From the NCBI RefSeq assembly GCF_035285525.1, contig NZ_JAYKGW010000092.1:1-32000 (forward strand): a DNA stretch of 32,000 bases, given 5' to 3'. Positions 4,462 to 20,187 of the stretch are shown here, piece by piece (positions within the stretch are counted from its first letter, which is position 1; each line of letters opens with the position of its first letter). The DNA comes from Okeania sp. Lineage in GTDB: Bacteria > Cyanobacteriota > Cyanobacteriia > Cyanobacteriales > Microcoleaceae. Position numbers and translations under genes: made by a program. The notes beneath the pieces were generated by a model. It ran no database searches and was not told where the DNA came from. It was given only the letters and a program-made list of their open reading frames with translations.

Positions 4462-4623
4462 ATGGCTAATTATTACAATATAATGTCATACCAATTGCAA
4501 TACATTAGCACTATACTTGGGCAATACTTCAGCCATCAACTAGATAGCACAAGTCGAATCACTTTTTTGTTAATTTTAGCTAATTTAATGTTAATTATTG
4601 TTATGTTTGCTTGTCCTGTATAA
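4462..4623 (+). CDS. Possible 53-aa small membrane protein (speculative)
   Basis: ATG 4462 to TAA 4621-4623 translates as MANYYNIMSYQLQYISTILGQYFSHQLDSTSRITFLLILANLMLIIVMFACPV. A purine-rich stretch (ggaagaggaagga) lies ~10 nt upstream and the C-terminal segment is hydrophobic and helix-length. It falls below the ORF-track cutoff and I recognise no homology. Confidence 0.2.
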   Translation: MANYYNIMSYQLQYISTILGQYFSHQLDSTSRITFLLILANLMLIIVMFACPV

Positions 4624-5183: not shown

Positions 5184-6026
5184 ATGGCAAATGTAAGTTA
5201 TAACTTCGGTAGCCCCAAATTTACTCCCATTATTAAAGAAGCAACCAATAAACAGATTCTTTTATTAGATGGAGTCAACGATTATCTTGAAATTCCCGAT
5301 GCCAATGCTATTGACTTTGGCACGAATCAAAACTTTACCGTTGAGTCTTGGTTCAAAGTCGATCCGAGTCAAAATACCGAAGGCGACATCATCGAAAAAT
5401 GGAAAGACCCCACTGGCTATCCTTATGTGATTCGCTACGATGGAGGCAGTGGTAAAGTCGTTGCTGCTCGCTACGATCGCTCTAATAATCCTAGTATTGT
5501 TTCGACGAGAACTTTTAACGATGGCCAATCTCATCACGTTGCTTTTGTCAAAGATGGTAATCAATTAAAACTTTACGTTGATGGCCAACTAGACGGAACG
5601 ACTACAGACACCACAACGGGTAATACCCAAAATAACTCGCCTCTGTTCATTGGTAATCGAGGAGGTATTGCCAACCATTTCAAAGGCGAAATAGAGGAAC
5701 TCCGCATTTGGAATGTGGCCCGGACTCCAGCAGAAATCCAGAGCAACTTAAACACAACTTTCCAAGGGACTGAAGCAGGGCTGGCAGGTTATTGGAATTT
5801 TGACCAGGATAATATCGATGGGACGATCGCTCAGGATGCTACGGCTAATGGCAATGACGGTACTCTCAAAAATGGGGCGAAGTTGGAGATAGATGACTCT
5901 TTCATCGGTTATGTAGAGATAGTTTTGGACCAAGCGGTGACTGTTGCACCGGGGGCTATTATTGAATATCGGATTGAGGGGCCTCTACTGCTACCCAACA
6001 GACAGATTTTTATAATGCTCAATTAG
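5184..6026 (+). CDS. N-terminal fragment of the giant RTX exoprotein: LamG (concanavalin A-like lectin) cassette 1 plus the start of a Calx-beta domain, cut off by a frame change
   Basis: LLLDGVNDYLEIPDANAIDF...FTVESWFKV...HHVAFVKDGNQLKLYVDG...ELRIWNVART...GYWNFD is a LamG/Laminin_G_3-type module ~85% identical in DNA to the cassettes at 6219-6765 and 8347-8905. The ORF ends in nonsense-looking residues (PLLLPNRQIFIMLN). The -1 frame, open from 5978, continues the Calx-beta domain. Confidence 0.85.
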   Translation: MANVSYNFGSPKFTPIIKEATNKQILLLDGVNDYLEIPDANAIDFGTNQNFTVESWFKVDPSQNTEGDIIEKWKDPTGYPYVIRYDGGSGKVVAARYDRSNNPSIVSTRTFNDGQSHHVAFVKDGNQLKLYVDGQLDGTTTDTTTGNTQNNSPLFIGNRGGIANHFKGEIEELRIWNVARTPAEIQSNLNTTFQGTEAGLAGYWNFDQDNIDGTIAQDATANGNDGTLKNGAKLEIDDSFIGYVEIVLDQAVTVAPGAIIEYRIEGPLLLPNRQIFIMLN

Positions 6027-6103
6027 ATGTCAGCACCACCGATGGGAATCCACCAACTAATTCTGTTTTTATTCCTCAAGGGGAAAATACAGCCCGCATC
6101 CAC

Positions 6104-9100
6104 TTGACAGCTTTATCGGATGCGGTGGTCGAGGGAGACGAAAACGTTAAAATTACTCTACTTTCTGGTACGGACGCTTTTGGTGGAACTTACAACCTTG
6201 CTAATAACCGGGAAGTCTTATCTTTAAACGGTACGACCGATTATGTGGAAATTCCCGATGCCAATGCTATCGATTTCACCAAGGATCAAAACTTTACTGT
6301 TGAGTCTTGGGTGAAAGTCGATCCGAGCCAAAATACCGAAGCTGACATATTTGAAAAATGGAGCGGTCCTGGTGGCTATCCTTATGTGATTCGCTTAGAC
6401 GGAAGCACTGGTAAAATCAATGCTGCTCGCTACGATGGTTCTCGTAATCCTAGTATTGTTTCGACTGCAACTTTGAACGACGCACAATATCATCACATTG
6501 CTTTTGTCAAAGAAGGTTCGGTTCTCAAACTTTACATTGATGGTAAGCTAGACGGAACGACTACAGATACGACGACTGGCAATACCCAAAACAGCTCACC
6601 CCTTTTTGTCGGTCAGCGGGGAGATAATAGTAACCGTTTCAACGGGGAAGTTGACGAACTCCGCATCTGGAATATATCTCGCACTCAAAACGAAATTCGC
6701 CAGAATATGTATGGCTCTCTGACTGGGAATGAAGTCGGTTTGGCCGGTTATTGGAGTTTTGACTCAGGAAGTGTTAATGGTAATACGATTACAGATTTAA
6801 GCTCTAACAACAATAATGGTACTCTGAATTCTTCTAATAACAAAGCTCTGTTAACAACAGGAACGGCACCGCTTAATCTAGATTCATTCGTCAACTACGA
6901 CAATATATATCCTGCTATCAGTAGAGGGTCTGCTACCCTTACATCTTCCACACAAGTAACAGGGCAAGTAAACCACTATATGGAACTAGGAGGTAATGCT
7001 ACCACAGACCTGGCTTTTGCTGGAACAGCTAACTACACGATCGCGGCTTGGGTGAAGCCAGACGGTGAAGGAACCATTGTAGGTAAACATAACAGTGGAG
7101 TAATTGGTTCCCATTTCCTTAGAGTCCAAAATGATGGACGTATTCAGGCTCATCGCGAAGTTTCCCCGTGGGAGTTGGTTTCTGATACTGCTATTCCCTT
7201 CGGTCAGTGGAGTCATGTAGCGACCACTTATGATGGTGCGACGCTAAAAATTTATATTAACGGTCAACTATCAGGTTCTCGGGCTTTTGGTGCTCAAGTT
7301 AGTACCGATACTCAAACTCCCGTAATCGTTGGGGCGCGTCAAAGTAGTGGAAACCCAATTGATATTTTACCAGGCTCTATTGATGAGGTGCAAATATGGA
7401 ATAAGGCTCTATCAGAAACTGAAATTCAAAACGCCCAGGGTCGTTCTATATCAGGAAACGAATCGGGACTTGTGGGATATTGGGATTTTAATGCCAGTGA
7501 TAGTAGTGGAGCTAGCGTTGTTGACTTGAGTGGCAACGGCTATAATGGTACAGTTAAAGCTGAAGTTGCAGACCTAACTTATATAGGACATTACTCAAAT
7601 GGAGGTAGATTATCCTTTAATCTTTCTGGACGCACACTTTCTAGCACACCAAATGTTATTGGTACGCTCACCTCCGTATTAACAGATAACCCAGAACCAA
7701 GTTTTTTCATCCAATCTTCCGATCCATCTGTCTCCTTCTTTGTAGAAGACAGTTCTGCCTATCAAGCAGGTATAGCTTTTAGCGATCGCTTTGGAGACCA
7801 AATAACAGCTAACAACGCCATTGTGGCCGACAGCCAAGGTGAAGCCACCTTCCAAGTCAAACTCACCTCCCAACCCACTAACAACGTAACCATTAATCTC
7901 ACGTCAGGAAGTGGGACTCTCAACAACAATAGCCTGACCTTCACCCCCAATAACTGGGATACTTATAAAACCGTCAACGTCACTGGTTTGGGAGCAACCT
8001 TCAATAACTTCAACGTCAGCGCCAGTGTCACCAGTAATGACAGTAAGTATAGCAGCTTAAGCAACTCTACATTAGGTGTCATCGACTCTACCCCAAGGGA
8101 CACCACTAAAATCAAAGTAACAGAAGGAGCAGTAGAACAAGACATCCCTCCTATAATTGCTACCGTTAGTGCCTCTCAAGACGCCCAGGAAGGACAGCCA
8201 GAACCAGGTCAGTTTACAGTTAATTTGAGCGATATTGCTCCCCAAGGCGGATACGTTGTCCCCTATAAAGTATCCGGCGGTACGGCCACAGAAGGCACTG
8301 ATTACAACGTTACTACCAGTGACAATAATACCAAGCTGGGAAAAAGTCTGAACCTGGACGGACAAAACGATTATCTGGAAATTCCCGATACCAATGCCAT
8401 TGATTTTGCTAAAGACCAAAACTTTACCGTTGAGTCTTGGGTACAAGCCGATCCCAATCAAACACCAGGGGGCAATACCGACCGTGACATCATTGAAAAA
8501 TGGAGTGGCCCCGGTGGCTATCCTTATGTGATTCGCTACGACAGAAATAACGGTAAAATCGTTGCTGCTCGCTGGGATGGTACAAATGGTCCTGCCATTG
8601 TTTCTACGAAAACTCTTAACGATGGACAATATCATCACATTGCTTTTGTCAAAGATGGTTCTGCTCTAAAACTTTATATTGACGGTCAGCTAGAGGGAAC
8701 GACTACAGATACAACCACTGGGAATACCCAAAATAATTCGCCCTTGTTTATTGGTAATCGAGGAGGTGTGGCGAACCATTTCAAAGGGAAAGTTGACGAA
8801 CTCCGCATCTGGAATGTGGCGCGAACCGAAGCCGAAATCCAGGACAGCTTAAATGCTACCTTCACAGGGAACGAAACTGGCTTAGTTGGCTATTGGAACT
8901 TTAATAATGATAGCGGCACAACTGCAACGGATTTAACCAGTAATAATAATGACGGCACATTAAAGAATGGTGCGTCTTTGGTTGACAGCAGTATCGGTTT
9001 GCTAAAAATAGATGCGGGTCAAACCTCAACCAATATTGGTATCGAAGCCATAGATAACCAAATTGCTCAAGGGGATAAAACCGTAACCGTAGCTATAGAA

Positions 9101-12100
9101 AGGAGTAACCCCGCGAGCCAAGCAACCCTAAATATCAAAGATGACGAAAAAGCAGGAATAGAATTTGCCCAACTCAGCAAAACAGCTACTATCGAAGTTC
9201 CCGCTATCAAATTAGAAGTAACCACTGCTTACAATTCTAGCACGGGAGCGATCGGCTTAAAAATCGCCCAAGGCGCTCAAAGCTATACTTTTGCAGCCGA
9301 CACCACCATAACCTTTACTAATGGTGTCGAAATAATTATTCCGGCTGGCACGACTCTGAGTAATAATGCAGCCACAGTCACTGTCGCCCAAAATCTAGGC
9401 AGTATCCCCATTGCCGAAACCAGCACTACGGAAAATCGGCTGTTGGATGTAGGCATTCTCTCCTACAACGAAGATTCTAACGGCAACGTCACCGCCAACG
9501 TCCAAGTACGTTTAACCCAAAGACCAGCGGGAAATATCAGTGTCACCCTTACTGATGCTAACGGTAGCGACAGTGCCATTTTCAACTTCACCAATACTAA
9601 CTGGAATAAATACCAACAAACCAACGCCAGCAACTTCCTACAATTAACCTCTGCCAACAACGCAGTTGCTTTAACCGCCAAAGTTGGCAACGCTAATACC
9701 ATTAACTTGCCTTTATCAGCTAACGTTGTGGCAACTCCATTAGGAAATATCAACACTGGTACTGGCAACCAACTGATAACCACAGAAGGGGAACGAATAG
9801 AATTTACTGCTACCAAAGCCTACGATGCTAACGCGGGTACTGTAGAAATAGAACTATTCAACCGTTCTAGCGATTACACCCTTACTGCGGATCAAGTTAT
9901 CGTCTTCAATAACGGTACTCAGGCACGAGTTACAACAGACACCGCCCTGAAATTAGGTCAGGCAAAAGCAGTTCCTGTAACCCTAACTCAGGGCACAGCT
10001 ATTCCTGTTAACCAAGAAGGTTCGGTAGTATTGCCGTCAGGTGAAACTACGGTGGCAGTGCGGTTGTCGTCACAACCTACTAGTGGCAATGTGGGTTTAG
10101 ATTTAACTATCGACAACAGCAGGGAAGGTAAATTTAAGAGCAACAATACCCAAGCCGAAACCCTCACCTTCACTCAGCAAAACTGGAACCAGTACCAAGA
10201 AGTGACAGTGAAAGGGGAAGACGATCTACTTGTTGATGGTAATATAACTTACAATTTGAACGTCAAAGGTCAAAACGGCAACGCTGACAGCAATTATAAG
10301 GGTACCTTACTACAATCCATATCAATAACTAACGAAGATAACGACAGAACTCCCGATCCAACCCAAACAACTAACAATTTCAACCAACCTCCGATAATTG
10401 CCGATCTGACCGCAGATAAAACCCAGATCGACGAAAATGGCGGTAAAGTTATTGCTACCTTCAAGTTAAACAAACCCGCACCTGTAGGAGGCTTAAACAT
10501 TGAATATGAAGTCATCAGTGAAACTGCATCGACTTCACAAGACTTGCAAACACCTTTTGTGTTTGTAGAGAACAACCCCTTAAGTATGGCGGATCGAATA
10601 CCACCAGCTAATTTGGCATCAACTAATGGCGATTACCTACCGTCAATCGTTCCAGTTTTTGTGGACTGGGATCAGGACGGAGATTTAGATGTTTTTGGAG
10701 GGGAATACGCATTTTTCAAGCCAGCTTACACCGAAGGTATTACTTATTACGAAAACACAGGGGATAAAAACAATCCTGTATTTGTACAACGCACTGGCGC
10801 CCAAAATCCTTTGAGCAGCATTGTTAATATTGATGCTCCTGCTCCCGCATTTATAGATATTGGTAACGATGGAGATTTAGACGTTTTTATTGGCGATGTA
10901 GATGGGCAAATTCACTACTTTGAAAATACGGCTTCTGGATTCGTGAAAAGAACCGGGGCTAATAATCCTTTTAATTCTATAAATGGTGGCGATCCAGCCA
11001 GACGCTTTCCCCTTACTCCTACTTTTGTAGATATAGATGCGGATAAAGATTTAGATTTCTTTGCAGTGTATCGGGATGGAATAGCTCGAGATACAGTTGT
11101 TTTCTTTGAAAATAATGGAGGGAATTTTGTTCAACGCACTGGAGCAGATAATCCCCTAAATGGAAAAGGAAGTATTGATGGTGCCGTAAAATTTGGAGAC
11201 CTAGATAACGATGGCGATTTTGATGCAGTTTTTGATGGTGTCTATGGAACAGTTTACTATCGAAACATAGGAAATGCTATAAATCCAGTTTTTGAAATCA
11301 GTGAGCAACTTTCCCCATTTAGGGGATTGGGTCTCAATATTTTTGGGCGACTGGACTTAGTAGATATTGATAACGATAACCAATTAGAGTTGTTCGTTGG
11401 TTATCGTAACGTGGCGTTTTACGAGCAGTTGTCCTACCAGAACCCGCTTACAGTTAATATACCTGAAGGTAAATCGCAAGCAACTGTCGAGATTAGAGCG
11501 ATGGATGACGCCATCGTAGAAAACAAAGAAAACTTCACCGTTCGACTGATTGACAGAAATGATGAAAGCGATGTCAATGAGACCCTAACTCTCGAAGTAA
11601 CAGAAAACTATCAGGTATACACTCCTCCAGGAAGTCAAAGTTTTTCTAGCAACTCTGTCGGGCTGCAAATTAAACAGTCAAGCACTTTACCGAAAAACCT
11701 GGTAACAACAGATAATCGTTTCAAAATAACCAATGCTTTTGATTCTGTTAACAAAAAAGTAACCTTAGATATCAATAATGCCAGCGGCTCTATTGCAATC
11801 CCAGCAGGAGAAACACTGACATTTAAAAATGGCACCGTTGTAGAAGTGAGTACTGCTACTACTGTGCAAGCAGGAAGCCCTCAAGTAGTGAATGTTGTAC
11901 TCAAAGAAGTTCCTCCTTATAGTATCCCTCTAGGCACTCAACTGACATTCAACGACGGTAGTAAAGTCACTGTCGCCGAAACAATATCAATATCTGCTTT
12001 CAATAGCACATCAGTGCAAGTACAAGCGCAAAGCGACACTGCTCTCCAGCCTAATACAGGAGATACAACTAAACTCAGTCGCAGCAACCAATTGCGAACA

Positions 12101-15100
12101 TTTGTAAATGTAGATGTTACCAGCGCTTATGACGGATCGACCGATAGCAACCTGCAACTGAAGTTAAACGAAAGCCAACTAAATAAATTCACCCTAAAAC
12201 AGGGAACCGAAATAAGTTTCAACAACGGACAAACCATTGTTACTGTTGGCAGTGATACAGAAATAAACCCATCGACAGCCACAGCAGTACCAGTAACTAC
12301 AACCAGTGCAACCAAAACCATAGCTGCCAACCAAAGCACAACAGCCAGCACCCCATTTGAAGCCCAAATAACCATCCTTGACAACGACACTCCTGGAGTT
12401 CGTGTCACCACCGATTTAGCTAGCAAAAACGTCGTTTCTGGCACATTCAACACCACCGAAGCTGGAGGGGAGCAAACGTTCTACTCTCGCCTAGAAAGCG
12501 AACCCCTAGAACCAGTATCAGTGTTTGTGGGTAGTAGCAAGAAAGAGGAAGGATTATTAGATGGCAAAGAAGTCATCGAACTCCAATTTGACAGAACCAA
12601 CTGGAATATTCCCCAAGCATTTACAGTCAAAGGTGTCGATGACCTAATTCAAGACGGCAATGTTGCCTACAACCTGAAAACCACTGTCGAAAGTCGTGGC
12701 GACCTCAACTATCGCGAAGGCGCAATAGATATTGATGTCCTCCAAGGCTTAAATAACGGTAAAGTTCAACTAGAACTAAACGAACTCAACATAGAGAAAG
12801 CTCAACTACCTCAAGGAACTAAGTTAAACTTCAGTAACGGTACTGTAGCCACAGTAGGTCAAACCGTCACCCTAGATAATGACGAAACTAACACTCCAGT
12901 TGATGTCAGTGTCACCATAGAACCAAACACCCTGGGATTTGGTGCCACAAGCAGCAACGGTAGTTGGCAGGTAAGCGAAGCATATAACCACGGCCTCAAA
13001 CAGGTAGAATTAAGAAATACCACTGGCAACCCCATCACCCTCACCAAAAACCAAACCATCAAATTTAACAACGGTGGGGAACTGAGAATAGATGCAGACA
13101 TCACTATCGCCGAAAACAGTCGGGACTTAGCTAAGGCTACATTAACGACAAACCCCAATACGCTCCCACTCCTAGCAGTAGGCACAACTAATAATAACGG
13201 TAACTTTGAAGTAACTACCACCTACAACAACACCCAAAAACAATTAGGATTAAAAAATACCACCGGTACTGCCAAGAATCTCAAAACAGGAGATATTATC
13301 AGCTTTACCGACGGTACATCTTTCATTGTAACTACGGATGTGACGATTGCAGCCAACAGTACGAGTAAGGTATCGGGTGCATTAGAGGTATCTGGACTGA
13401 CAACCTCCTTCATTAAAGACATCTCCCCAGATATCAACCTCAGTAACACCGACAACGATGTCGCCGGCCTAGTTTTAGTAAACGTAGAAGAAATAGCAGC
13501 CAAAGAGGGAGTTTCTAACAACTTCTATAAAGTCGAGCTAAAAACTGAACCCACAGATACTGTCACCGTAGTAATGACGCCCTCCGACGACCAAATCGCC
13601 CTAGAAGGGAAACTTCCCGGAGAACCTTTAACTATTACTTACGATGCCACTAACTGGAATGTTCCCCAAACCATCGGCGTCACCGCAGTAGATGACTTTG
13701 AAGTAGAATTTGACCATACCACAAATATTGCCTTCGACACCTCTAATAGTGCCGACAGTGTTTACGCAGGATTGAACGTTAGCAATGCTGGAGTCAAAGT
13801 CAATATTATTGACAACGATTTACCAACAGCCAGCGTCTTGTCAGTAGCAGGAGCCATAGAAGCAAACGCCCCCGGTTACTTCACCATCAACCTAGATAAA
13901 CCCCTGCCAGACAAATTCGATGACACAGGTTTAAAAATCAACTACACCGTCAGTGGTACTGCGGATACGAATGGAGTCAGTCCTACAGATGACCTGCAAC
14001 CCATAGCTACCGGAAGCGCTCGTATTGCTCCTGGAGAAAGTAGAACGCCATTGATAGCCTTCCCCATAGATGACTTCAAAGCAGAAGGTACTCCTTTAGA
14101 GGTTGTCGGTGCTTACAATGGAACCAGCATCAGCCTGAAAGTCAAAAATGGCGTCAGTTTAGATAATCCAGCTACGAGCGTGGTAGAGAATACAGTCACT
14201 CTGAAGGCAGGAACGAAATTAACCTTTAGTAATGGAGCGATCGGAACAGTTGGCAGTGACGTTACTTTCAACCAAACAGGCAATAAAGCAGTTAATATTA
14301 CCAAAGCTCCGGAAAGTTCCAAAGCCCTAAATACCATTGCTGTTGCGGATACCACTCGCATTGCTTCAGAAACAGTAATCGTTGAAGTTACTGCCGGAAA
14401 TGGCTACCAAGTCAGTAGCGACGAAAATATTGCTACCCTAGAAATAGAGGATAATGATATCCCTGGAGTGCGGGTAGTGGAGGCATCGGAACGAACTACC
14501 GTCACTGAAGGAGAAGCACCAGCCCAATACTTCATCTCCCTCTTGACTGAACCCACTGCTGACGTTACGATTAATATCGCCCCAGTGCAAAAAACTCGAA
14601 ATTTAACTGTTACCAAAGATTTAAGTGGTGGTGTAGTAGAGTTAAAAGTTAACGATCCTAAAGTTAACTCTCTCTTGTTGCCAGTAGGAACAGTCCTCAA
14701 TTTTGGTGGTGGTAAAACAGCAACCGTAGCAGCGGATACTTTCGTAGGTTCAAAGGGGAATAGCGTTAATGTCAACACTGTCTCTGGCAGCATTACCACA
14801 GGGAACACGACCACCTATTCTTACCAAGAACTATCATCTACCAACTCCCTAACATTTAACTCCAACAACTGGTATCAGTTACAGCCAGTTAACGTTACAG
14901 GTTTAGATGACAACGTAGCCGAAGTCGGAAATACCCATGAGGCGACCCTAGAATATACCATCACCAGTGGCGACAGTGACTACAACAATCTCAAGGTTCC
15001 AGCTCAGATTATTGATATTAAAGATCGTCCTTTCGATCCCAATACCACCGCTAGCAGTCTCACCCAAGGATTACTAACATTCCAAGAGAGTCTCGACACC

Positions 15101-18100
15101 CTCAGTCTGCCTCTGATAGGAACACTAGAAGGTACAGCTCCTCCCTTTATCCGCAACGTTATTACTGACGTAGTAGCAGAAGTGCGGGCGATGGAGTTCG
15201 TGACTGGAGAAAAACTAGCCAAAGCCTTCACTAACTCATTTAACAACAACATCAACAATGGTGGAGCAGTAACCGTAGAAATCACCGATCTATCGAGCAG
15301 CAATATTAGCTTTAAAGTTAACGCGACAGACAAGTTCAATAACACACCCATATCTCTCGCCAGCGATTTAGGATTGCCTGCATTAGGCATTGGTATGGAA
15401 ACAAATGGTAACCTCAATGCCAACTTTGACTACAACTTCGACTTCGCTTTCGGACTCAATGACACCGACGGTTTCTATATAGATACCGCCAATACTAACC
15501 TCAATGCCAATGCCGCAGTTAAATTAAGCGACAACTTCAATGCTAAAGGTAGCTTAGGCTTTTTGCAACTGGATATGACTAACGGTATCAATGTTGCTCA
15601 AGGAGACACCAAAGGAACGGAAGTCAATGCTACTTTCGATATTGGCTTAAAAGACGCCAACAACAAACTAACCGTAACCGAATTGAAAAACTTGCGTAAA
15701 CAAGGAAAGCTATCGAGCATTCTTGATTATGGTTTCGCTGGGGATGCAGCTTTAGACGTGGATGTAGTTACCTCAGTCAAAGGCAGCACAGCATTACCAT
15801 CTTACAGTTTCAATCTCTTTAGTGACTTACCGCTGTTCAACTATACCAATGCAGCTCAACAACCACCTCAACCCACAACCGTATCCATTGCCGGATCGAC
15901 TAATGTCAGCATTGAAGAAAAAACGGCTAAGTCAATTAACATCAGCATTGCCGACAACGGTAACAATAAGCCTAACGAAAATATCCGACTGCCAAAAGGC
16001 ACTCAGTTAGTCTTCACCTGGGGTAACAATAATCAAGAGACAGCCATCATAGATAAAACTGTCACCATCGCTGAAGGTAGCATCGGTGCAGCCTTAGTTA
16101 AACTGAAAAGTGATAACGTCAAAGACAACAATAAAACAGTAACCATTAATAGTAATGCTAGTGCCAAGTTAGAAGCAGGTGCATTTAATATCGCTTTCAA
16201 TAACATGACCTTAGACTTTGGTAGCTTTGTTACCGGAGTAGTCAGCCCCGTAGTCGATTTCCTTGCCAACGTTGTCGAACCCATTACCCCTGTAGTCAAT
16301 GCCCTCAACGAGCCAATAGGTTTCTTCAACGACGTCGGTTTAACATCAGAATTTGACCAAAACGGCGACGGACAAGCAAATATTATCGAAGTCGCAGGCA
16401 CTATTATCGAAAAACTGCCTTCTCGTGGTGGTAAAGCCAAAATTGATTACATCCAATTCTTCGATGCCATTGTCGGCGTCACTGAGTTAGTCGGAGCAGT
16501 GAAAGACTTGCAAAGTAGCCTCGGAGCTGGAAACAACTTTGCTATCGACTTTGGCAGCTATACCCTACAAAACTTCCAAGGTGCTTCTCCCACCACCAGC
16601 GCTGCTGATGTCAACCCCCAAACCCAAGGCAGCAGTCAACTCAACTCTAATACCAGAAACCAAAGCCAAAATAAAGGTTTGGGCAAACAAAGCCTTTCTC
16701 AAAAGGTTGATAAAATGTTTGGCGCCTTAGACAAACTCGGTATTAGCATCCCCGTCTTGGAAGACCCCTTCACTGCTATCAACCTCTTCCTGGGCAACGA
16801 CATCGACTTGATTACCTACGATATGCCAGCCTTGGATATCCAATACGAAATTAATAACAAGTTCACAATTCTAAATTTACCGCCAGTAGATGGATTAATT
16901 CAAGGTGAATTTTCCGTGTTTTCAGATTTAGTCTTCGGTTTGGATACAGTAGGTTTCAGCGCTTGGGAGAAAACAGGATTCGACCCAGCTCAAAGCTATC
17001 TAGTCTTAGACGGTTTATACCTCAGTGATGTAGACCCCAATACGGGTGTAGATGTGGATGAGCTTTCCGTCGATGCTACAATGGCAATAGGAGCCAAACT
17101 GAATGCGGTAGTTGCTTCGGCTACAGTTCTCGGTGGCATCACGGGTGAAGTTGGTTTGGATGTGGTAGATATCGGGGAATACACCGGACAAAGCGATGGT
17201 AAGATTCGGGGTTCCGAAGTGTTCTCACGGATTAGTAATCCTTTGAGTCTGTTCGAGTTAGCAGGTTCCATTGAAGCATTCTTCCGGGCTATTGTGAAAG
17301 TCGGAGTAGATTTAGGTTTCTTTGAAATCACCAAGACAGTTTACGATAAAGAATTGGCTCGCGTTCCCATCTTTGAGTTTGCTCTGGGAGGTGCCCCAGG
17401 TGGTGGCGGTAGTACAGGTGGCGGTAGCGGTAGCAATGCCGGTACTGCTGCTAGCGGTTATATTGAGGGAGGGACAGTATTTCTGGATACTAACTTTAAT
17501 TTAGCACCAGATCCCCTAGAACCGAAGACAACTACGGACGAGTTAGGAAACTATAATCTGGAGTTTGAACTGGCATTATTTGATGCCAATGAAAATGGCA
17601 AAATAGATGATGATGAAGGTCAAATTGTGGTAGTTGGTGGTACAGATGTAACTACTGGTTTGCCTCTAGCTATTTCTCTGGTTGGTAATGCCACAACTGG
17701 CAGTGTGGTGACACCTATTACTACCATTAAAAATGGTTTGGAACAACTAGGTTTAGATGTGAAAACTGCCAACAAAATCCTCAGTAAAACTTTGGGATTA
17801 GATTCAGACTTAGACGATTTCGATGCTTATGAAGCGCAAGGAGAAGACTTGACGGTAGGAGTAAATACAGCTCTATCTCATATCTTGCTGCACAGTTTAA
17901 CAATTAACGGTGCTGCCTTCTTAAAAGGCGCTGGTTTTGATGGCAATGCTGCCGAATCTGCGAAAATTTTAACCGATGCAATTGTTAAAAAATTAAGCAC
18001 GGAAGATGAGGTGGAATTAGAAGAAAAAGCTGATATTGAAGCTATTTTCAATTCTGCTCTTCAGGAGATAGGAATAGATTCTGTCGATCCCACAACTGTG

Positions 18101-19963
18101 AGCAATGTTGCTACTTTAGTAAGTGCTTTTAATGATTTCATGGAGGATTTATTAGAGATTGAACAGGAAGATGATGATGACGAGGATGAGGACGAGGGAA
18201 ATAAACCAAAATCTGTAAATGATATCATACCAACCATCACTCCTTTCAAAAATTTATTGTTAGGAGATTTACCAGAATTGACGGAACGATTAACTCGCGG
18301 TGAGTTAACTTTAGAGGAAGTTTATGAGAGTTTAGATTCTAAATTAAACCAGACTGGTTATCAGTTGCGAGTAGTAGAAGAAGTCGAGGGAGAAGATGGG
18401 GAAATTGAGATTGAAGTTGAGTTTATCATCGAAGAGATTACCCAAGGTGCAACAGGAAAAATTGCTAATATTCAGGGAGGTACAGTTTTCTTAGATACCA
18501 ACTTCAATGAAAAATTCAATGGCAAAGACACTTCTACTGTAATAGAGAAATCCGGTAAATTCGTTCTTGATTTTGAGAATGCTACCTACGACAAAAATGG
18601 TAATAATAAGGTTGACAGCGACGAAGGTCAAATAGTAGTTATCGGTGCGGTAGATGCTCTTACTGGTGTAGCTTTAAATGTTCCTTTAGTTGCTAATGTA
18701 GCATCTCCCGATGTGGTTTCTGGTTTAACTACTCTTAAAGTCGGTTTGGAACGCTTGGGAATTACTTCTTTGGAAGCAGGCAAGATTATTAACCGCATCT
18801 TTGAATTAGCAGCAGAAGATTTAGAGAGCTTTAATCCTTATAAGGAGAAAGGAGATGATTTTGATGAGGGTATTGATGGTGTAAGAGCAGATATTTTGAT
18901 TAAGAGTCTGTTGGTTCACGGCGATACTTTATTGAAGAATGCTGGTTTTAGCGGTAATTCTTTTGATGTTGTTCTTGAGGGTATTGCACAGAAACTCAAT
19001 TCTGTTGGTAATAATTTCCGCTTGAATAATACTAATCGCATCCGACAGGTTTTTGAGGAGATTTTGACCGTTGCTGAGGTAACTGTGGAGCCAGAAGTTG
19101 TAGAAACTGTGGCTGAGTTAATTAATTCCTTTAATAATTCAATAGGGAATATCTTGGAGGAGAAAAAAGACCGACAGGAGTCCGTTGTGAATCGTTCTCT
19201 CGGTCAAATTGCACCTCTACAAGAGATGCTGTTGGCAGAGTTGCCTAAAGTTACTCGTCGTTTAACCCGTGGAAATATGACTGTAGAACAGGCGTTTGAA
19301 TCTGTTGAGTCTCAGTTGAGCGAACGCGGTTTCGATTTCATAGTCAAGAATAATGGTAAGACCGAGATAGACTTTACCAACCAAGAATTGAAAGGTAATG
19401 CAGAAGACGATACTATCAACGGTAGTGGTGGTGACGATACTATCATCGGCGGTTTCGGTAACGATATGTTGCGTTCCCTTGGTGGCCAAGATGTTCTGGA
19501 AGGCCGTCCAGAAAACGACCATTTGTTAGGTGGTTCTGGGGACGATGTCCTTAATGGGGGTATCGGCCGCGATCGCCTGAATGGTGGTCTGGGTAAAGAT
19601 ACTATGACTGGTGGGGCAAGTATTGATCGCTTTATCTTCGCGATAAATGGAGAGTTTGATGATGAGTTGATGGGTAGTGATCGGATTACTGACTTTAATC
19701 CTGGTCAGGATATTATCTTGTTGGATAAAGATACGTTTACTGAGTTGGAGAGCAATTCGGGAACAGGTTTCAGCGTACAAACTGAGTTTGCATCTGTTAC
19801 TGAGGGAGTGAGAACTTCTGAGGCGTTAATTGTTTATAACAGTAATAATGGCAGGTTGTTCTACAACCAGAACGGTAGTGAACCTGGCTTTGGTGAAGGT
19901 GGTGAATTTGCTGTGTTAGCAGGCAAACCCGATATTAGTGCTGAGGATTTCTTTGTGAGGTAA
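6104..19963 (+). CDS. Giant multidomain RTX / type I secretion-type exoprotein (putative adhesin): LamG x3, Calx-beta, FG-GAP/VCBS propeller, beta-sandwich modules, RTX repeats
   Basis: A 4619-codon ORF. Its frame is already open from 5978 and encodes the rest of the Calx-beta domain that begins in ORF 5184-6026. The C-terminus has GGxGxD nonapeptides (GSGGDDTIIGGFGNDML...GGSGDDVLNGGIGRDRLNGGLGKDTMTGG) followed by a typical cyanobacterial RTX tail (...LFYNQNGSEPGFGEGGEFAVLAGKPDISAEDFFVR). There is no N-terminal signal peptide, as expected for T1SS substrates. Confidence 0.92.
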   Translation: MTALSDAVVEGDENVKITLLSGTDAFGGTYNLANNREVLSLNGTTDYVEIPDANAIDFTKDQNFTVESWVKVDPSQNTEADIFEKWSGPGGYPYVIRLDGSTGKINAARYDGSRNPSIVSTATLNDAQYHHIAFVKEGSVLKLYIDGKLDGTTTDTTTGNTQNSSPLFVGQRGDNSNRFNGEVDELRIWNISRTQNEIRQNMYGSLTGNEVGLAGYWSFDSGSVNGNTITDLSSNNNNGTLNSSNNKALLTTGTAPLNLDSFVNYDNIYPAISRGSATLTSSTQVTGQVNHYMELGGNATTDLAFAGTANYTIAAWVKPDGEGTIVGKHNSGVIGSHFLRVQNDGRIQAHREVSPWELVSDTAIPFGQWSHVATTYDGATLKIYINGQLSGSRAFGAQVSTDTQTPVIVGARQSSGNPIDILPGSIDEVQIWNKALSETEIQNAQGRSISGNESGLVGYWDFNASDSSGASVVDLSGNGYNGTVKAEVADLTYIGHYSNGGRLSFNLSGRTLSSTPNVIGTLTSVLTDNPEPSFFIQSSDPSVSFFVEDSSAYQAGIAFSDRFGDQITANNAIVADSQGEATFQVKLTSQPTNNVTINLTSGSGTLNNNSLTFTPNNWDTYKTVNVTGLGATFNNFNVSASVTSNDSKYSSLSNSTLGVIDSTPRDTTKIKVTEGAVEQDIPPIIATVSASQDAQEGQPEPGQFTVNLSDIAPQGGYVVPYKVSGGTATEGTDYNVTTSDNNTKLGKSLNLDGQNDYLEIPDTNAIDFAKDQNFTVESWVQADPNQTPGGNTDRDIIEKWSGPGGYPYVIRYDRNNGKIVAARWDGTNGPAIVSTKTLNDGQYHHIAFVKDGSALKLYIDGQLEGTTTDTTTGNTQNNSPLFIGNRGGVANHFKGKVDELRIWNVARTEAEIQDSLNATFTGNETGLVGYWNFNNDSGTTATDLTSNNNDGTLKNGASLVDSSIGLLKIDAGQTSTNIGIEAIDNQIAQGDKTVTVAIERSNPASQATLNIKDDEKAGIEFAQLSKTATIEVPAIKLEVTTAYNSSTGAIGLKIAQGAQSYTFAADTTITFTNGVEIIIPAGTTLSNNAATVTVAQNLGSIPIAETSTTENRLLDVGILSYNEDSNGNVTANVQVRLTQRPAGNISVTLTDANGSDSAIFNFTNTNWNKYQQTNASNFLQLTSANNAVALTAKVGNANTINLPLSANVVATPLGNINTGTGNQLITTEGERIEFTATKAYDANAGTVEIELFNRSSDYTLTADQVIVFNNGTQARVTTDTALKLGQAKAVPVTLTQGTAIPVNQEGSVVLPSGETTVAVRLSSQPTSGNVGLDLTIDNSREGKFKSNNTQAETLTFTQQNWNQYQEVTVKGEDDLLVDGNITYNLNVKGQNGNADSNYKGTLLQSISITNEDNDRTPDPTQTTNNFNQPPIIADLTADKTQIDENGGKVIATFKLNKPAPVGGLNIEYEVISETASTSQDLQTPFVFVENNPLSMADRIPPANLASTNGDYLPSIVPVFVDWDQDGDLDVFGGEYAFFKPAYTEGITYYENTGDKNNPVFVQRTGAQNPLSSIVNIDAPAPAFIDIGNDGDLDVFIGDVDGQIHYFENTASGFVKRTGANNPFNSINGGDPARRFPLTPTFVDIDADKDLDFFAVYRDGIARDTVVFFENNGGNFVQRTGADNPLNGKGSIDGAVKFGDLDNDGDFDAVFDGVYGTVYYRNIGNAINPVFEISEQLSPFRGLGLNIFGRLDLVDIDNDNQLELFVGYRNVAFYEQLSYQNPLTVNIPEGKSQATVEIRAMDDAIVENKENFTVRLIDRNDESDVNETLTLEVTENYQVYTPPGSQSFSSNSVGLQIKQSSTLPKNLVTTDNRFKITNAFDSVNKKVTLDINNASGSIAIPAGETLTFKNGTVVEVSTATTVQAGSPQVVNVVLKEVPPYSIPLGTQLTFNDGSKVTVAETISISAFNSTSVQVQAQSDTALQPNTGDTTKLSRSNQLRTFVNVDVTSAYDGSTDSNLQLKLNESQLNKFTLKQGTEISFNNGQTIVTVGSDTEINPSTATAVPVTTTSATKTIAANQSTTASTPFEAQITILDNDTPGVRVTTDLASKNVVSGTFNTTEAGGEQTFYSRLESEPLEPVSVFVGSSKKEEGLLDGKEVIELQFDRTNWNIPQAFTVKGVDDLIQDGNVAYNLKTTVESRGDLNYREGAIDIDVLQGLNNGKVQLELNELNIEKAQLPQGTKLNFSNGTVATVGQTVTLDNDETNTPVDVSVTIEPNTLGFGATSSNGSWQVSEAYNHGLKQVELRNTTGNPITLTKNQTIKFNNGGELRIDADITIAENSRDLAKATLTTNPNTLPLLAVGTTNNNGNFEVTTTYNNTQKQLGLKNTTGTAKNLKTGDIISFTDGTSFIVTTDVTIAANSTSKVSGALEVSGLTTSFIKDISPDINLSNTDNDVAGLVLVNVEEIAAKEGVSNNFYKVELKTEPTDTVTVVMTPSDDQIALEGKLPGEPLTITYDATNWNVPQTIGVTAVDDFEVEFDHTTNIAFDTSNSADSVYAGLNVSNAGVKVNIIDNDLPTASVLSVAGAIEANAPGYFTINLDKPLPDKFDDTGLKINYTVSGTADTNGVSPTDDLQPIATGSARIAPGESRTPLIAFPIDDFKAEGTPLEVVGAYNGTSISLKVKNGVSLDNPATSVVENTVTLKAGTKLTFSNGAIGTVGSDVTFNQTGNKAVNITKAPESSKALNTIAVADTTRIASETVIVEVTAGNGYQVSSDENIATLEIEDNDIPGVRVVEASERTTVTEGEAPAQYFISLLTEPTADVTINIAPVQKTRNLTVTKDLSGGVVELKVNDPKVNSLLLPVGTVLNFGGGKTATVAADTFVGSKGNSVNVNTVSGSITTGNTTTYSYQELSSTNSLTFNSNNWYQLQPVNVTGLDDNVAEVGNTHEATLEYTITSGDSDYNNLKVPAQIIDIKDRPFDPNTTASSLTQGLLTFQESLDTLSLPLIGTLEGTAPPFIRNVITDVVAEVRAMEFVTGEKLAKAFTNSFNNNINNGGAVTVEITDLSSSNISFKVNATDKFNNTPISLASDLGLPALGIGMETNGNLNANFDYNFDFAFGLNDTDGFYIDTANTNLNANAAVKLSDNFNAKGSLGFLQLDMTNGINVAQGDTKGTEVNATFDIGLKDANNKLTVTELKNLRKQGKLSSILDYGFAGDAALDVDVVTSVKGSTALPSYSFNLFSDLPLFNYTNAAQQPPQPTTVSIAGSTNVSIEEKTAKSINISIADNGNNKPNENIRLPKGTQLVFTWGNNNQETAIIDKTVTIAEGSIGAALVKLKSDNVKDNNKTVTINSNASAKLEAGAFNIAFNNMTLDFGSFVTGVVSPVVDFLANVVEPITPVVNALNEPIGFFNDVGLTSEFDQNGDGQANIIEVAGTIIEKLPSRGGKAKIDYIQFFDAIVGVTELVGAVKDLQSSLGAGNNFAIDFGSYTLQNFQGASPTTSAADVNPQTQGSSQLNSNTRNQSQNKGLGKQSLSQKVDKMFGALDKLGISIPVLEDPFTAINLFLGNDIDLITYDMPALDIQYEINNKFTILNLPPVDGLIQGEFSVFSDLVFGLDTVGFSAWEKTGFDPAQSYLVLDGLYLSDVDPNTGVDVDELSVDATMAIGAKLNAVVASATVLGGITGEVGLDVVDIGEYTGQSDGKIRGSEVFSRISNPLSLFELAGSIEAFFRAIVKVGVDLGFFEITKTVYDKELARVPIFEFALGGAPGGGGSTGGGSGSNAGTAASGYIEGGTVFLDTNFNLAPDPLEPKTTTDELGNYNLEFELALFDANENGKIDDDEGQIVVVGGTDVTTGLPLAISLVGNATTGSVVTPITTIKNGLEQLGLDVKTANKILSKTLGLDSDLDDFDAYEAQGEDLTVGVNTALSHILLHSLTINGAAFLKGAGFDGNAAESAKILTDAIVKKLSTEDEVELEEKADIEAIFNSALQEIGIDSVDPTTVSNVATLVSAFNDFMEDLLEIEQEDDDDEDEDEGNKPKSVNDIIPTITPFKNLLLGDLPELTERLTRGELTLEEVYESLDSKLNQTGYQLRVVEEVEGEDGEIEIEVEFIIEEITQGATGKIANIQGGTVFLDTNFNEKFNGKDTSTVIEKSGKFVLDFENATYDKNGNNKVDSDEGQIVVIGAVDALTGVALNVPLVANVASPDVVSGLTTLKVGLERLGITSLEAGKIINRIFELAAEDLESFNPYKEKGDDFDEGIDGVRADILIKSLLVHGDTLLKNAGFSGNSFDVVLEGIAQKLNSVGNNFRLNNTNRIRQVFEEILTVAEVTVEPEVVETVAELINSFNNSIGNILEEKKDRQESVVNRSLGQIAPLQEMLLAELPKVTRRLTRGNMTVEQAFESVESQLSERGFDFIVKNNGKTEIDFTNQELKGNAEDDTINGSGGDDTIIGGFGNDMLRSLGGQDVLEGRPENDHLLGGSGDDVLNGGIGRDRLNGGLGKDTMTGGASIDRFIFAINGEFDDELMGSDRITDFNPGQDIILLDKDTFTELESNSGTGFSVQTEFASVTEGVRTSEALIVYNSNNGRLFYNQNGSEPGFGEGGEFAVLAGKPDISAEDFFVR
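10660..11400 (+). other. FG-GAP/VCBS repeat region (probable beta-propeller) within the giant protein
   Basis: Motifs recur roughly every 60 aa: VDWDQDGDLDVFGG, FIDIGNDGDLDVFIGDVDGQIHYFENT, FVDIDADKDLDFFAV...VVFFENNG, FGDLDNDGDFDAVFDG...YYRNIG and LVDIDNDNQLELFVGY. Each is followed by F(V/E)xRTGAxNP. Confidence 0.8.
17456..19350 (+). repeat. Intragenic tandem duplication of a ~300-aa module (17456-18380 and 18461-19350) preceding the RTX block
   Basis: Both copies run GGTVFLDTNFN...(D/N)xNGKxDxDEGQIVVxG..D..TG..L, then a helical region (LEQLGL/LERLGI ...NGAAFLKGAGFDGN/GDTLLKNAGFSGN), then ...LTRGELTLEEVYESLDSKLNQTGY / LTRGNMTVEQAFESVESQLSERGF. Copy 1 contains an acidic run, EQEDDDDEDEDEG. 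Confidence 0.8.
19391..19650 (+). other. RTX (hemolysin-type Ca-binding) nonapeptide repeat block
   Basis: Roughly eight consecutive GGxGxDxLx-type nonamers, read directly from the translation. Confidence 0.9.
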
Positions 19964-20108: not shown

Positions 20109-20187
20109 TCCCCTACTCCCCTACTCCCCTACTTCCCTACTTCCCTACTTCCCTACTCCTACTCCCCTACTCCCCTACTTCCCTACA
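20109..20187. repeat. Tandem octamer repeat (C/T)CCCTACT, ~10 units
   Basis: cccctact x3, tccctact x3, cctact, cccctact x2, tccctac. It lies between the two convergent genes and supplies the last codons and the stop of the minus-strand ORF ending at 20175. Confidence 0.9.

What the first reader, a model, noticed from the sequence alone, without database searches (positions are those of the whole stretch)
9180..16130. Eleven copies of a ~65-80-aa repeat (core G-T-x-L-x-F-x-N-G-x-x-x-T-V) that I cannot assign to any named domain
- **Seen:** A motif recurs at these nt positions:
  - ~9304 (TITFTNGVEIII)
  - ~9895 (VIVFNNGTQARV)
  - ~11807 (GETLTFKNGTVVEV)
  - ~11931 (GTQLTFNDGSKVTV)
  - ~12200 (GTEISFNNGQTIVTV)
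  - ~12811 (GTKLNFSNGTVATV)
  - ~13049 (NQTIKFNNGGELRI)
  - ~13289 (GDIISFTDGTSFIV)
  - ~14207 (GTKLTFSNGAIGTV)
  - ~14685 (GTVLNFGGGKTATV)
  - ~15996 (GTQLVFTWGNNNQETAII)
- **Seen:** Most are preceded ~30 aa upstream by a strand such as V(T/S)xAY(N/D)...(V/L)xLxL, for example VTSAYDGSTDSNLQLKLNESQLNKFTLKQGTEISF or VSEAYNHGLKQVELRNTTGNPITLTKNQTIKF. Each is followed by a T/S/V-rich strand.
- **Seen:** The repeats are interleaved one or two at a time between the NW(N/D)xxQ beta-sandwich modules.
- **Inference:** This is a distinct small beta-domain, possibly uncharacterised. I do not recognise it as Calx-beta, Ig-like/Big, cadherin or VCBS.
Basis: inference. Interest (0 to 1): 0.65.

Follow-up and report, generated by a model that had tools for sequence, protein, structure and literature searches.

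The report
Rare insertable beta-domain in cyanobacterial giant adhesin
The repeated motif marks eleven copies of a real, rare and so far unnamed ~75-residue all-beta domain. The copies sit between, or bud out of the middle of, the stalk modules of a giant calcium-binding surface protein of a cyanobacterium, and the only distant look-alike is a small barrel in phage baseplate proteins.

Summary
All 11 motif sites lie at the stated positions in one 4,619-aa ORF (6104-19963, +). They define a ~75-80-aa all-beta unit with consensus L.VT.AYD..G.IgL.i....TL.AGT.L.FsNG...TV..DTTI.......V.VTL. In leave-one-out HMM tests each real copy scores 25-61 bits; the best composition-matched shuffle scores 14 or less.

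No Pfam-A, NCBIfam or PDB-sequence family matches the repeats, singly, as a consensus, or across 65 family members. An exhaustive HMM search of 1.84 billion representative proteins found only 46 hits, 23 of them at E<=1e-10. Every named hit is cyanobacterial (Hormoscilla, Crocosphaera, Trichodesmium, Cyanobacterium sp.).

AlphaFold2 predicts a seven-strand domain (pLDDT 78, core 86-91). It has no significant Foldseek match. Weak hits to the barrel of phage baseplate J/Mu gp47 recur, and hhalign agrees (probability 70-75%, P~3e-5, controls about 10).

The new point is that the domain is an insert. It splits a Calx-beta-like sandwich at the same position in the window and in at least 10 homologues. 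In Trichodesmium it splits a CHRD domain.

Most likely it is a laterally projecting module of an RTX-type surface fibre. Its function is inferred, not shown. It is a new domain family of moderate interest.

The parts
6104..19963 (+). Host gene: a giant ORF of 4,619 aa. It carries LamG x3, Calx-beta-like sandwiches, an FG-GAP region, the repeats, and C-terminal RTX nonapeptides.
5184..6026 (+). Probable true N-terminus of the same gene (a fourth LamG domain). It is separated from the giant ORF by a 1-nt frame shift in a G-run near 5986-5989.
9179..9409 (+). Repeat r1 (aa 1026-1102)
9770..10012 (+). Repeat r2 (aa 1223-1303)
11564..11686 (+). Orphan N-terminal hairpin of a repeat (aa 1821-1861, HMM 4-35, iE 9e-4). 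It may be the first half of the copy whose core is r4, split by r3.
   Evidence: inference for the split
11696..11923 (+). Repeat r3 (aa 1865-1940)
11903..12055 (+). Repeat r4, core only (aa 1934-1984, HMM 31-81; aa 1939-1980, HMM 38-79)
12092..12325 (+). Repeat r5 (aa 1997-2074). r3-r5 lie before the last strand of a Calx-beta domain.
12701..12937 (+). Repeat r6 (aa 2200-2278)
12932..13168 (+). Repeat r7 (aa 2277-2355). This copy was modelled with AlphaFold2.
13172..13408 (+). Repeat r8 (aa 2357-2435)
14084..14329 (+). Repeat r9 (aa 2661-2742). It follows an '...IAFPIDDFKAEG' Calx-beta-like motif; the host domain was not confirmed by Pfam.
14450..14599 (+). First half of the split Calx-beta-like sandwich (aa 2783-2832, sandwich HMM 1-49)
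14567..14806 (+). Repeat r10 (aa 2822-2901), nested inside the split sandwich
14825..15001 (+). Second half of the split sandwich (aa 2908-2966, sandwich HMM 49-106)
15881..16120 (+). Repeat r11 (aa 3260-3339), the most divergent copy. It lies inside a ~780-aa region with no Pfam family.
19421..19603 (+). RTX nonapeptide repeats (aa ~4440-4500). They mark the host as a Ca2+-binding protein that is probably secreted by type I secretion.

Best explanation
**What is shown**
- The eleven motifs are copies of one autonomous all-beta domain of ~75-80 residues. The model has seven strands: an N-terminal hairpin plus a ~50-residue core.
- The domain belongs to a rare sequence family, seen in cyanobacteria wherever a member has a name, that no Pfam, NCBIfam or PDB entry describes.
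- The copies arose by old duplications and each is conserved at its own position in orthologues.
- The domain behaves as a self-contained insert. It sits between Calx-beta-like sandwich modules, or is spliced into a loop of one (profile position ~50, or before the last strand). In Trichodesmium it is spliced into a CHRD domain.
- The host is a giant protein carrying LamG, FG-GAP, Calx-beta and RTX elements.

**What is inferred**
- The host protein is exported by type I secretion and forms a Ca2+-stiffened surface fibre.
- The inserted domains project sideways from that fibre as knobs. They would bind ligands or neighbouring fibres, as the domains that bud from 'split' Ig-like domains do in RTX adhesins.
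- The core is a distant relative, or at least a fold-mate, of the barrel of phage baseplate J/Mu gp47, a protein-protein contact module.
For: - **Real repeat.** Searches place and score the copies.
- **Unnamed.** Searches find no Pfam, NCBIfam or PDB-sequence family.
- **Rare.** The exhaustive search found 46 proteins at E<=1e-3 among 1.84e9 representatives.
- **Cyanobacterial wherever named.** Named members are Hormoscilla, Crocosphaera, Trichodesmium, Cyanobacterium sp. DS4 and unclassified cyanobacterial MAGs.
- **Shared architecture.** Homologues carry the same LamG and FG-GAP domains.
- **Position-specific conservation.** Nine of the ten full-length copies are 49-84% identical to their best match in another protein, which for eight of them is the same-order repeat of fragments P0005 or P0022, but only 29-37% identical to their best paralogue in the window. 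r11 is the exception (32% versus 27%).
- **Fold.** AlphaFold2 gives pLDDT 73 and then 78, with the core at 86-91 and seven strands.
- **Nested insertion in the window.** The sandwich HMM is split 1-49 | r10 | 49-106.
- **Nested insertion in homologues.** The same split occurs in P0005, 6, 7, 8, 11, 12, 16, 23, 32 and 44.
- **Calx-beta host.** Removing r3-r5 restores a PF03160 match to the profile end, E 3.8e-5.
- **CHRD host.** Removing the single Trichodesmium copy turns a CHRD match of 1-76/117 into 1-117/117 and raises it from 50.0 to 57.3 bits.
- **RTX C-terminus.** PF00353 scores E 2.7e-14.
- **Split-domain precedent.** PMC12077191 describes ligand-binding domains budding from split domains in RTX adhesins.
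- **Baseplate J link, structure.** Baseplate J is the most recurrent Foldseek family, with rmsd 2-3.5 A over ~50 columns.
- **Baseplate J link, profiles.** hhalign versus the Mu gp47 family scores 28.7, P 2.6e-5, probability 75%. The hit lands on the barrel (aa 88-133) within the full-length protein.
- **Controls.** Reversed profiles score 8-10 and 200 column shuffles reach at most 17.4. Sandwich modules score 10.4 and P2 gpJ scores 9.6. The hit is reproduced with window-only repeats and with non-window repeats.
- **PHROGs.** phrog_6 'baseplate wedge subunit' is weakly hit by 4 of 65 members.
Against: - No functional residue cluster is conserved. The invariant positions (Phe, Gly, the AGT turn) look structural, so binding is only an analogy.
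- Ten or eleven copies along the stalk fit a spacer role as well as a ligand-binding role.
- No type I secretion genes lie in the 32-kb window.
- Only single-domain models were made. The sideways projection and the adjacency of the termini are inferred from the insertion pattern and were not modelled.
- Every Foldseek hit has E>=0.1 and TM<=0.54, and hhalign probability stays below 80%. Homology to baseplate J is therefore not established.
- HMMER sees no PF04865 match.
- The first strand of several copies coincides with what looks like the last strand of the preceding sandwich (r6, r9, aa 1821), so the N-terminal boundary is uncertain.
- The host of r9 was not recognised by Pfam even after splicing.
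Confidence: 0.6

Rival explanations
1. The domains are passive extender or spacer modules. They only add length, bulk or rigidity to the fibre and have no binding role.
For: There are many copies spread along ~2,300 residues of stalk. The conserved residues look structural. Tandem runs r6-r7-r8 resemble extender arrays, and the protein is rich in T, S and N.
Against: In RTX adhesins the extender repeats are usually near-identical tandem copies, whereas domains budding out of split domains are the ligand binders (PMC12077191). Here the copies are only 13-37% identical to each other, while nine of the ten full copies are 49-84% identical to their best match in other proteins. Several copies are nested rather than in line.
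Confidence: 0.3
2. The unit is a highly divergent Calx-beta, Ig-like or cadherin-type sandwich, that is, a known family beyond HMMER's reach, and not a separate domain type.
For: It lies among Calx-beta-like modules. Its first strand resembles their last strand. Weak single hits to Ig-like Pfam families occur, such as Ig_VWA7 at E 0.0011 and Big_2 at E 0.015, each in 1 of 65 members. Some Foldseek hits are lamin-tail or chaperone Ig folds.
Against: No Ig or Calx family is hit by more than one of 65 members. hhalign against the neighbouring sandwich profile gives a background score of 10.4. The unit (~75 aa, core ~50 aa) is shorter than those ~110-aa modules and is inserted inside them. The Ig-fold Foldseek hits have rmsd 8-12 A, against 2-3.5 A for baseplate J barrels.
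Confidence: 0.07
3. The resemblance to the baseplate J/gp47 barrel is convergence of a simple beta-hairpin pattern ('aGT.h.h..dG...h'), not common descent. On this reading the domain is an orphan fold family.
For: All Foldseek E-values are >=0.1. Identity in the hhalign match is ~10%. Other hairpin-repeat proteins also give partial hits to the same motif (P0019 and P0029). Column-shuffle controls destroy strand periodicity and are therefore lenient.
Against: The match spans five consecutive strands (46-54 columns) in the same order. It lands on the barrel within a 360-column profile. It is reproduced by two disjoint subsets of the family. It agrees with structure searches that used no gp47 information.
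Confidence: 0.4
4. The motif recurrence is a compositional artefact of a protein rich in T, S, N, V and G, and there is no real domain.
For: The host region is compositionally biased and rich in beta-strand-forming residues.
Against: Leave-one-out scores of 25-61 bits compare with shuffle maxima of 14 or less. The same unit is found at E down to 1e-129 in other proteins. A confident AlphaFold2 core was obtained.
Confidence: 0.01

Closest known systems
Barrel domain of phage baseplate J / Mu gp47 / T4 gp6-type wedge proteins (front part of Pfam PF04865 Baseplate_J)
   Same: Both are small all-beta barrels of ~50 residues. The strand-by-strand sequence pattern is shared: gp47 'TTIPAGTRWQRADGVVYSLADTIVIDRAGTTEITVTA' against the repeat 'TL.AGT.L.FsNG..aTV..DTTI.......V.VTL'. 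This is the best recurring Foldseek family. hhalign gives P 2.6e-5 on exactly that region.
   Different: There is no HMMER-level match and the similarity is below any accepted threshold. The repeat has an extra N-terminal hairpin. It occurs in up to 11 copies in a cellular extracellular protein, without the other baseplate J domains and without tail genes. P2 gpJ gave only a background match (score 9.6) and aligned with Mu gp47 only C-terminal to the barrel.
Ligand-binding domains that bud from 'split' Ig-like domains in RTX adhesins (AhLap, FrhA, MpIBP; PMC12077191, PMC10865825)
   Same: The host is a giant protein with C-terminal RTX repeats and a stalk of beta-sandwich modules. The domain leaves and re-enters a sandwich module part-way through its fold.
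   Different: The known budding domains are CBMs, peptide-binding domains, vWFA domains or beta-rolls. They occur in one to three copies near the C-terminus of proteobacterial adhesins. Here an unrelated ~75-aa domain recurs about 11 times along the stalk of a cyanobacterial protein. Binding was not tested.
Calx-beta domain (PF03160) and the related 'NWNxPQ' sandwich modules of the same protein
   Same: Both are all-beta and extracellular, occur in the same proteins, and probably sit in a Ca2+-dependent context.
   Different: Neither a sequence nor a profile match exists. The unit is shorter, lacks the DDD/DxDG Ca2+ motifs, and is a guest inside these modules rather than one of them.
Pfam DUF6799 (PF20606) and hairpin-repeat proteins such as P0029
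   Same: They share a 'L.aGt.v.l.dGt.v' beta-hairpin motif. Weak hits occur at E 0.011-0.013.
   Different: Only the ~20-residue hairpin matches and the scores are below the cut-off. Those proteins repeat the hairpin alone, not the 75-aa unit.

Membership tests
Baseplate_J barrel (PF04865 / Mu gp47-like) | Sequence match to the Pfam model above its gathering score | tested here: not met
   PF04865 does not appear for the single repeats or the family consensus at E<=10. It is not among the listed families for the 65 members at E<=1. Mu gp47 itself scores 265.8 bits.
Baseplate_J barrel (PF04865 / Mu gp47-like) | Profile-profile similarity to the barrel region | tested here: inconclusive
   hhalign probability is 70-75%, P 2.6e-5 to 4.2e-5, score 28-29 over 38-54 columns. 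The hit lies on gp47 aa 88-133. Controls score 8-17.
Baseplate_J barrel (PF04865 / Mu gp47-like) | Same fold by structure comparison | tested here: inconclusive
   Foldseek hits include 9ki1_H, 8kea_d, 9euf_I, 9b45_j and at least 12 BFVD entries annotated as baseplate J, baseplate wedge or Mu gp47 homologues. They have E 0.15-1.2, TM 0.39-0.51 and mostly rmsd 2-4 A over 43-57 columns. None reaches E<=1e-3.
Baseplate_J barrel (PF04865 / Mu gp47-like) | Accompanied by the other baseplate J domains and tail-module neighbours | tested here: not met
   The host is a LamG/FG-GAP/Calx/RTX protein. Its neighbours are an AraC regulator, an SDR, MurG, an MscS channel, an Ndh subunit and FtsH.
Calx-beta (PF03160) | Match to the Pfam model or to the protein's own Calx-like modules | tested here: not met
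   No hit. hhalign against the sandwich profile scores 10.4.
Bacterial Ig-like (Big_x), cadherin, VCBS/FG-GAP | Match to any of these Pfam models in a consistent fraction of copies | tested here: not met
   No family is hit by more than 1 of 65 members at E<=1. FG-GAP hits lie elsewhere, at aa ~1500-1750.
RTX adhesin / type I secretion substrate (host protein) | C-terminal RTX nonapeptide repeats | tested here: met
   PF00353 scores E 2.7e-14 at aa ~4440-4500. Four GGxGxD motifs are present, about 120 aa before the C-terminus.
RTX adhesin / type I secretion substrate (host protein) | Cognate ABC transporter, MFP and TolC genes nearby, and an N-terminal retention module | tested here: not met
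   No such genes were found among the nine other ORFs of 150 aa or more in the window. The N-terminus is a LamG domain. The rest of the genome is not available.
Split-domain-borne (budding) domain of RTX adhesins | The domain is inserted inside a beta-sandwich whose two halves flank it | tested here: met
   r10 splits the sandwich HMM as 1-49 | r10 | 49-106. The same split occurs in at least 10 homologues. Splicing restores Calx-beta and CHRD.
Split-domain-borne (budding) domain of RTX adhesins | Binds a ligand | not testable with these tools
   This needs recombinant protein and binding assays.

The most novel reading that the evidence does not exclude
The unit is a lineage-specific exaptation of the phage baseplate J/gp47 barrel into a portable 'plug-in' domain, found so far only in cyanobacteria. 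It can be spliced into loops of at least three different host folds: the Calx-beta-like sandwich, Calx-beta itself, and CHRD. The eleven position-specifically conserved copies would be distinct binding knobs that give one giant surface fibre a multivalent, multi-specific adhesion surface.
Probability: 0.2. Interest if true: 0.55.

Novelty: new variant of a known kind. Interest (0 to 1): 0.4.

Why it matters
- **Annotation.** Giant cyanobacterial surface proteins are almost unannotated between their LamG, FG-GAP and RTX landmarks. Defining this unit and its boundaries explains roughly 850 residues of this protein and similar stretches in about 30 related proteins from Trichodesmium, Crocosphaera, Hormoscilla and others.
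- **Candidate binding sites.** The repeated nesting inside other domains marks the unit as an independently folding insert. In RTX adhesins that criterion has successfully pointed to ligand-binding domains, so these copies are candidate sites for cell-cell or cell-surface contact in colony- and mat-forming cyanobacteria.
- **Evolution.** If the link to the phage baseplate J barrel holds, it would be an example of a virion assembly module reused in a cellular adhesin.
- **Limit.** On present evidence this is a sound new domain family, not a new principle.

Tried and rejected
- **Genome scan with r6-r8.** 129 pattern matches were found but no tblastn relative, so the source species is not among the GTDB representatives.
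- **P2 gpJ as a second baseplate J test set.** The 120 hits were at least 79% identical. A2 gave only a background match to the set (score 9.6), and P2 gpJ aligned with Mu gp47 only C-terminal to the barrel. It served only as a negative control.
- **Splicing r9 out of its presumed Calx-beta host.** This gave no Pfam hit, so that nesting remains a reading by eye.
- **Low-scoring hits of the exhaustive search** (P0019, P0024, P0026, P0029, P0035, P0039, P0040, P0049, P0050). These are unrelated hairpin or low-complexity repeats and were set aside.
- **Literature search** for giant cyanobacterial RTX/Calx/FG-GAP proteins found nothing on this unit.
- **AbrB-like swapped-hairpin barrel.** I recalled this from memory because of the 'G..L.F....G' pattern, but did not test it. 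No structure or family search pointed there.
- **PHROGs.** Only sub-threshold hits were returned.

Full report
**1. The observation**

The window contains one very long ORF, 6104-19963 on the + strand, of 4,619 aa. They lie at nt 9305, 9896, 11807, 11933, 12203, 12815, 13049, 13289, 14210, 14687 and 15998.

Aligned on the invariant Phe of 'L-x-F-x-N-G', the surrounding ~80 residues share more than the core motif:
- an upstream strand 'h-x-V-T-x-A-Y-(D/N)';
- a second strand 'x-V-x-L-x-L';
- the 'T-L-x-A-G-T-x-L-x-F-x-N-G' hairpin;
- 'x-x-T-V-x-x-D-T-T-I';
- a closing 'V-x-V-T-L' strand.

In a leave-one-out test an HMM built from ten copies scores the eleventh at 24.8-60.6 bits. Two hundred shuffles of the same residues average about 1 bit and never exceed 14. 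The value for r4 is inflated because its window overlaps r3. The recurrence is therefore real and not compositional.

There is no repeat at the DNA level. The copies are only 13-37% identical to each other.

Ten copies are full length. r4 (aa 1934-1984) matches only the C-terminal two-thirds of the profile (HMM 31-81 with the window-only profile; HMM 38-79 at aa 1939-1980 with the family profile). An orphan N-terminal hairpin lies at aa 1821-1861, just upstream of r3 (profile positions 4-35, iE 9e-4). One reading is that r3 is itself inserted into another copy, whose halves are the hairpin and r4. That reading is an inference.

**2. Is it a named domain?**

No named family was found with the libraries at hand.
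- For the whole protein, Pfam-A finds three Laminin_G_3 domains, FG-GAP_3, a weak Calx-beta and C-terminal RTX repeats. It finds nothing over the repeats. NCBIfam finds nothing.
- Single repeats scanned at E<=10 give only scattered, mutually inconsistent hits with E>0.005.
- After the family was collected (section 3), all 65 members were scanned individually. No Pfam family was matched by more than one member at E<=1.
- The family consensus sequence has no hit.
- Profile searches of all PDB chain sequences give nothing better than E 0.25.
- hhalign against a profile of the neighbouring 'NWNxPQ' sandwich modules gives a background score of 10.4. Those modules themselves weakly match Calx-beta at E 5.7e-4.

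**3. Distribution**

A profile of the ten window copies was scored against every one of 1.84 billion representative proteins. Only 46 reach E<=1e-3, 23 reach E<=1e-10 and 8 reach E<=1e-30. A handful of the weakest are unrelated hairpin or low-complexity repeats. About 30 representative proteins carry proper full-length copies.

Every member that has a name is cyanobacterial:
- Hormoscilla sp., 6,366 aa, 'LamG-like jellyroll fold domain-containing protein';
- Crocosphaera sp.;
- Cyanobacterium sp. DS4, WP_330203720.1, 'FG-GAP-like repeat-containing protein';
- Trichodesmium spp.;
- several unclassified cyanobacterial MAGs.

None of these names refers to the repeat. Most members share the LamG, FG-GAP, sandwich and repeat architecture.

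Nine of the ten full-length window copies are 49-84% identical to their best match in another protein. For eight of them that match is the same-order copy in the fragments P0005 or P0022. They are only 29-37% identical to their best paralogue in the window. r11, the most divergent copy, is the exception at 32% versus 27%. The duplications are therefore old and the copies are individually maintained.

**4. Predicted fold and nearest relatives**

AlphaFold2 on r7 gives pLDDT 73 with the ten window copies as alignment and 78 with the 65-member family alignment. Both models have seven strands. Residues ~31-70 reach pLDDT 86-91, while the N-terminal hairpin is less confident.

Foldseek finds no match at E<=1e-3 in the PDB or in BFVD. 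Among the weak hits one family recurs: the barrel of phage baseplate J/wedge proteins.
- PDB hits are Mu gp47 (9ki1_H), cyanophage A-1(L) (8kea), phi812 (9euf) and Pa193 (9b45).
- At least a dozen BFVD entries annotated as baseplate J, baseplate wedge or Mu gp47 homologues also appear.
- Most of these hits have rmsd ~2-4 A over 43-57 columns, TM 0.39-0.51 and Foldseek probability up to 0.98.

Read side by side, the sequences are suggestive:
- Mu gp47: '...TTIPAGTRWQRADGVVYSLADTIVIDRAGTTEITVTA...'
- repeat consensus: 'TL.AGT.L.FsNG..aTV..DTTI.......V.VTL'

I tested this with hhalign against an 83-sequence alignment of Mu gp47 relatives.

| Comparison | Score | Other measures |
|---|---|---|
| A2 vs gp47 barrel segment | 28.7 | P 2.6e-5, probability 75%, 46 columns |
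| A2 vs full-length gp47 profile (360 columns) | 30.2 | top hit at gp47 aa 88-133, the barrel |
| Reversed profiles | 9.5 and 8.4 | – |
| 100 column shuffles each way | mean ~9, maximum 17.4 | – |
| A2 vs sandwich profile | 10.4 | – |
| A2 vs P2 gpJ | 9.6 | aligns with gp47 only C-terminal to the barrel |
| Window copies only vs gp47 barrel | 29.5 | probability 69.6% |
| Family without window copies vs gp47 barrel | 28.4 | probability 71.5% |

PHROGs adds a faint echo. 'Baseplate wedge subunit' phrog_6 is one of only two families hit by four members, with best E 0.074.

These lines agree, but none reaches an accepted threshold and HMMER sees no PF04865 match. I treat the baseplate J barrel as the closest known relative in form. 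Membership is not established.

**5. The domain is an insert**

This is the main new point. A profile of the 'NWNxPQ' sandwich modules matches the window protein in two pieces around r10. Profile positions 1-49 match aa 2783-2832 and positions 49-106 match aa 2908-2966, with r10 (aa 2822-2901) between them.

The same split, sandwich 1-~50 | repeat | sandwich ~50-106, is found in P0005, P0006, P0007, P0008, P0011, P0012, P0016, P0023, P0032 and P0044. In P0012 two copies lie between the halves.

Removing r3-r5 and their linkers joins a Calx-beta fragment to a terminal strand. The PF03160 match then improves from E 0.002-0.004, ending at profile position 100, to E 3.8e-5, running to position 117 of 119.

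A 1,010-aa Trichodesmium protein has a different architecture (DUF4347, CHRD, RTX) and a single copy. That copy interrupts the CHRD domain. The unspliced match covers CHRD 1-76 of 117 at 50.0 bits. With the copy removed it covers 1-117 at 57.3 bits.

A unit that can sit inside loops of three different host domains must fold on its own and bring its ends together. This supports calling it an autonomous domain more strongly than the repeat statistics do.

Two cautions apply. For r9 the apparent Calx-beta host ('...IAFPIDDFKAEG | repeat | ETVIVEVTAGNGY...IEDND') was not recognised by Pfam even after splicing. In r6, r9 and the aa 1821 hairpin the first strand of the unit coincides with what looks like the last strand of the preceding module. 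The N-terminal boundary of the unit is therefore uncertain.

**6. Host protein and likely role**

The host protein has:
- LamG domains at the N-terminus;
- Calx-beta-like sandwiches;
- an FG-GAP region;
- a ~780-aa stretch without any family;
- two ~300-aa copies that are 37% identical to each other;
- four RTX nonapeptides about 120 residues from the C-terminus.

The ORF just upstream (5184-6026) encodes another LamG domain. It continues into the giant ORF if one G is added to the run near 5986-5989. The gene is probably ~4,900 codons long and is interrupted by an assembly error, a phase-variable tract or a mutation.

The RTX C-terminus makes a type I-secreted, Ca2+-dependent surface fibre the most likely identity. 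No secretion genes lie in the window.

In proteobacterial RTX adhesins, domains that bud out of 'split' Ig-like domains are the ligand-binding domains. The split domain serves to project them away from the fibre axis (PMC12077191). By analogy I propose that these units are lateral knobs on the fibre, used for binding ligands or neighbouring fibres. Their position-specific conservation and mutual divergence fit distinct roles better than a pure spacer role.

No conserved functional site is visible, however, and ten or eleven copies along the stalk are also compatible with a structural role. The function is inferred, not shown.

**7. Verdict**

This is a distinct small beta-domain without a name in Pfam-A (2025 copy), NCBIfam 20 or the PDB.

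This analysis adds four things:
- a defined family that is rare and cyanobacterial wherever named;
- a predicted fold;
- a reproducible but sub-threshold link to the phage baseplate J barrel;
- the demonstration that the unit is a nested, portable insert.

It is a new sequence family of a familiar kind: an accessory beta-domain of a giant adhesin. It is useful for annotation and as a pointer to candidate binding sites, and of moderate rather than high interest.

Noticed in passing
window 5184-6133 (shift near 5986-5989): ORF 5184-6026 encodes a LamG domain and ends in a short out-of-frame tail. The next frame reads 'GASTATQQTDFYNAQLDV...', a Calx-beta-like motif, and runs into the giant ORF. 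One extra G in the GGGG run would fuse them into a gene of ~4,900 codons. This could be an assembly error, a phase-variable tract or a pseudogene.
   Followed up: partly
window ~17462-18373 and ~18467-19342 (aa 3787-4090 and 4122-4413): Two ~300-aa copies, 37% identical (blastp E 3e-56), lie just before the RTX repeats. Each starts with 'GGTVFLDTNFN'. There is no Pfam family, only weak MC7 and EF-hand hits.
   Followed up: partly
window ~15040-17380 (aa ~2980-3760): A ~780-aa stretch of the giant protein has no Pfam hit at all. Repeat r11 sits inside it, so r11 may again be an insertion into an undescribed larger domain.
   Followed up: no
window 23786-25864 (+): A 692-aa MscS-type mechanosensitive channel has a C-terminal DEP domain (PF00610, E 3.7e-22). 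I did not check how common this fusion is.
   Followed up: no
P0038 (Trichodesmium, 1,010 aa), residues ~548-636: A single copy of the repeat is nested inside a CHRD domain of a DUF4347-CHRD-RTX protein. Removing it restores a full-length CHRD match (1-117/117).
   Followed up: yes
window 20175-21026 (-): A 283-aa ORF directly downstream of the giant gene, on the opposite strand, has no Pfam family at E<=0.001.
   Followed up: no
window 8072-8638 (-): A 188-aa ORF lies antisense inside the giant gene. It is most likely a chance ORF in a long coding region.
   Followed up: no
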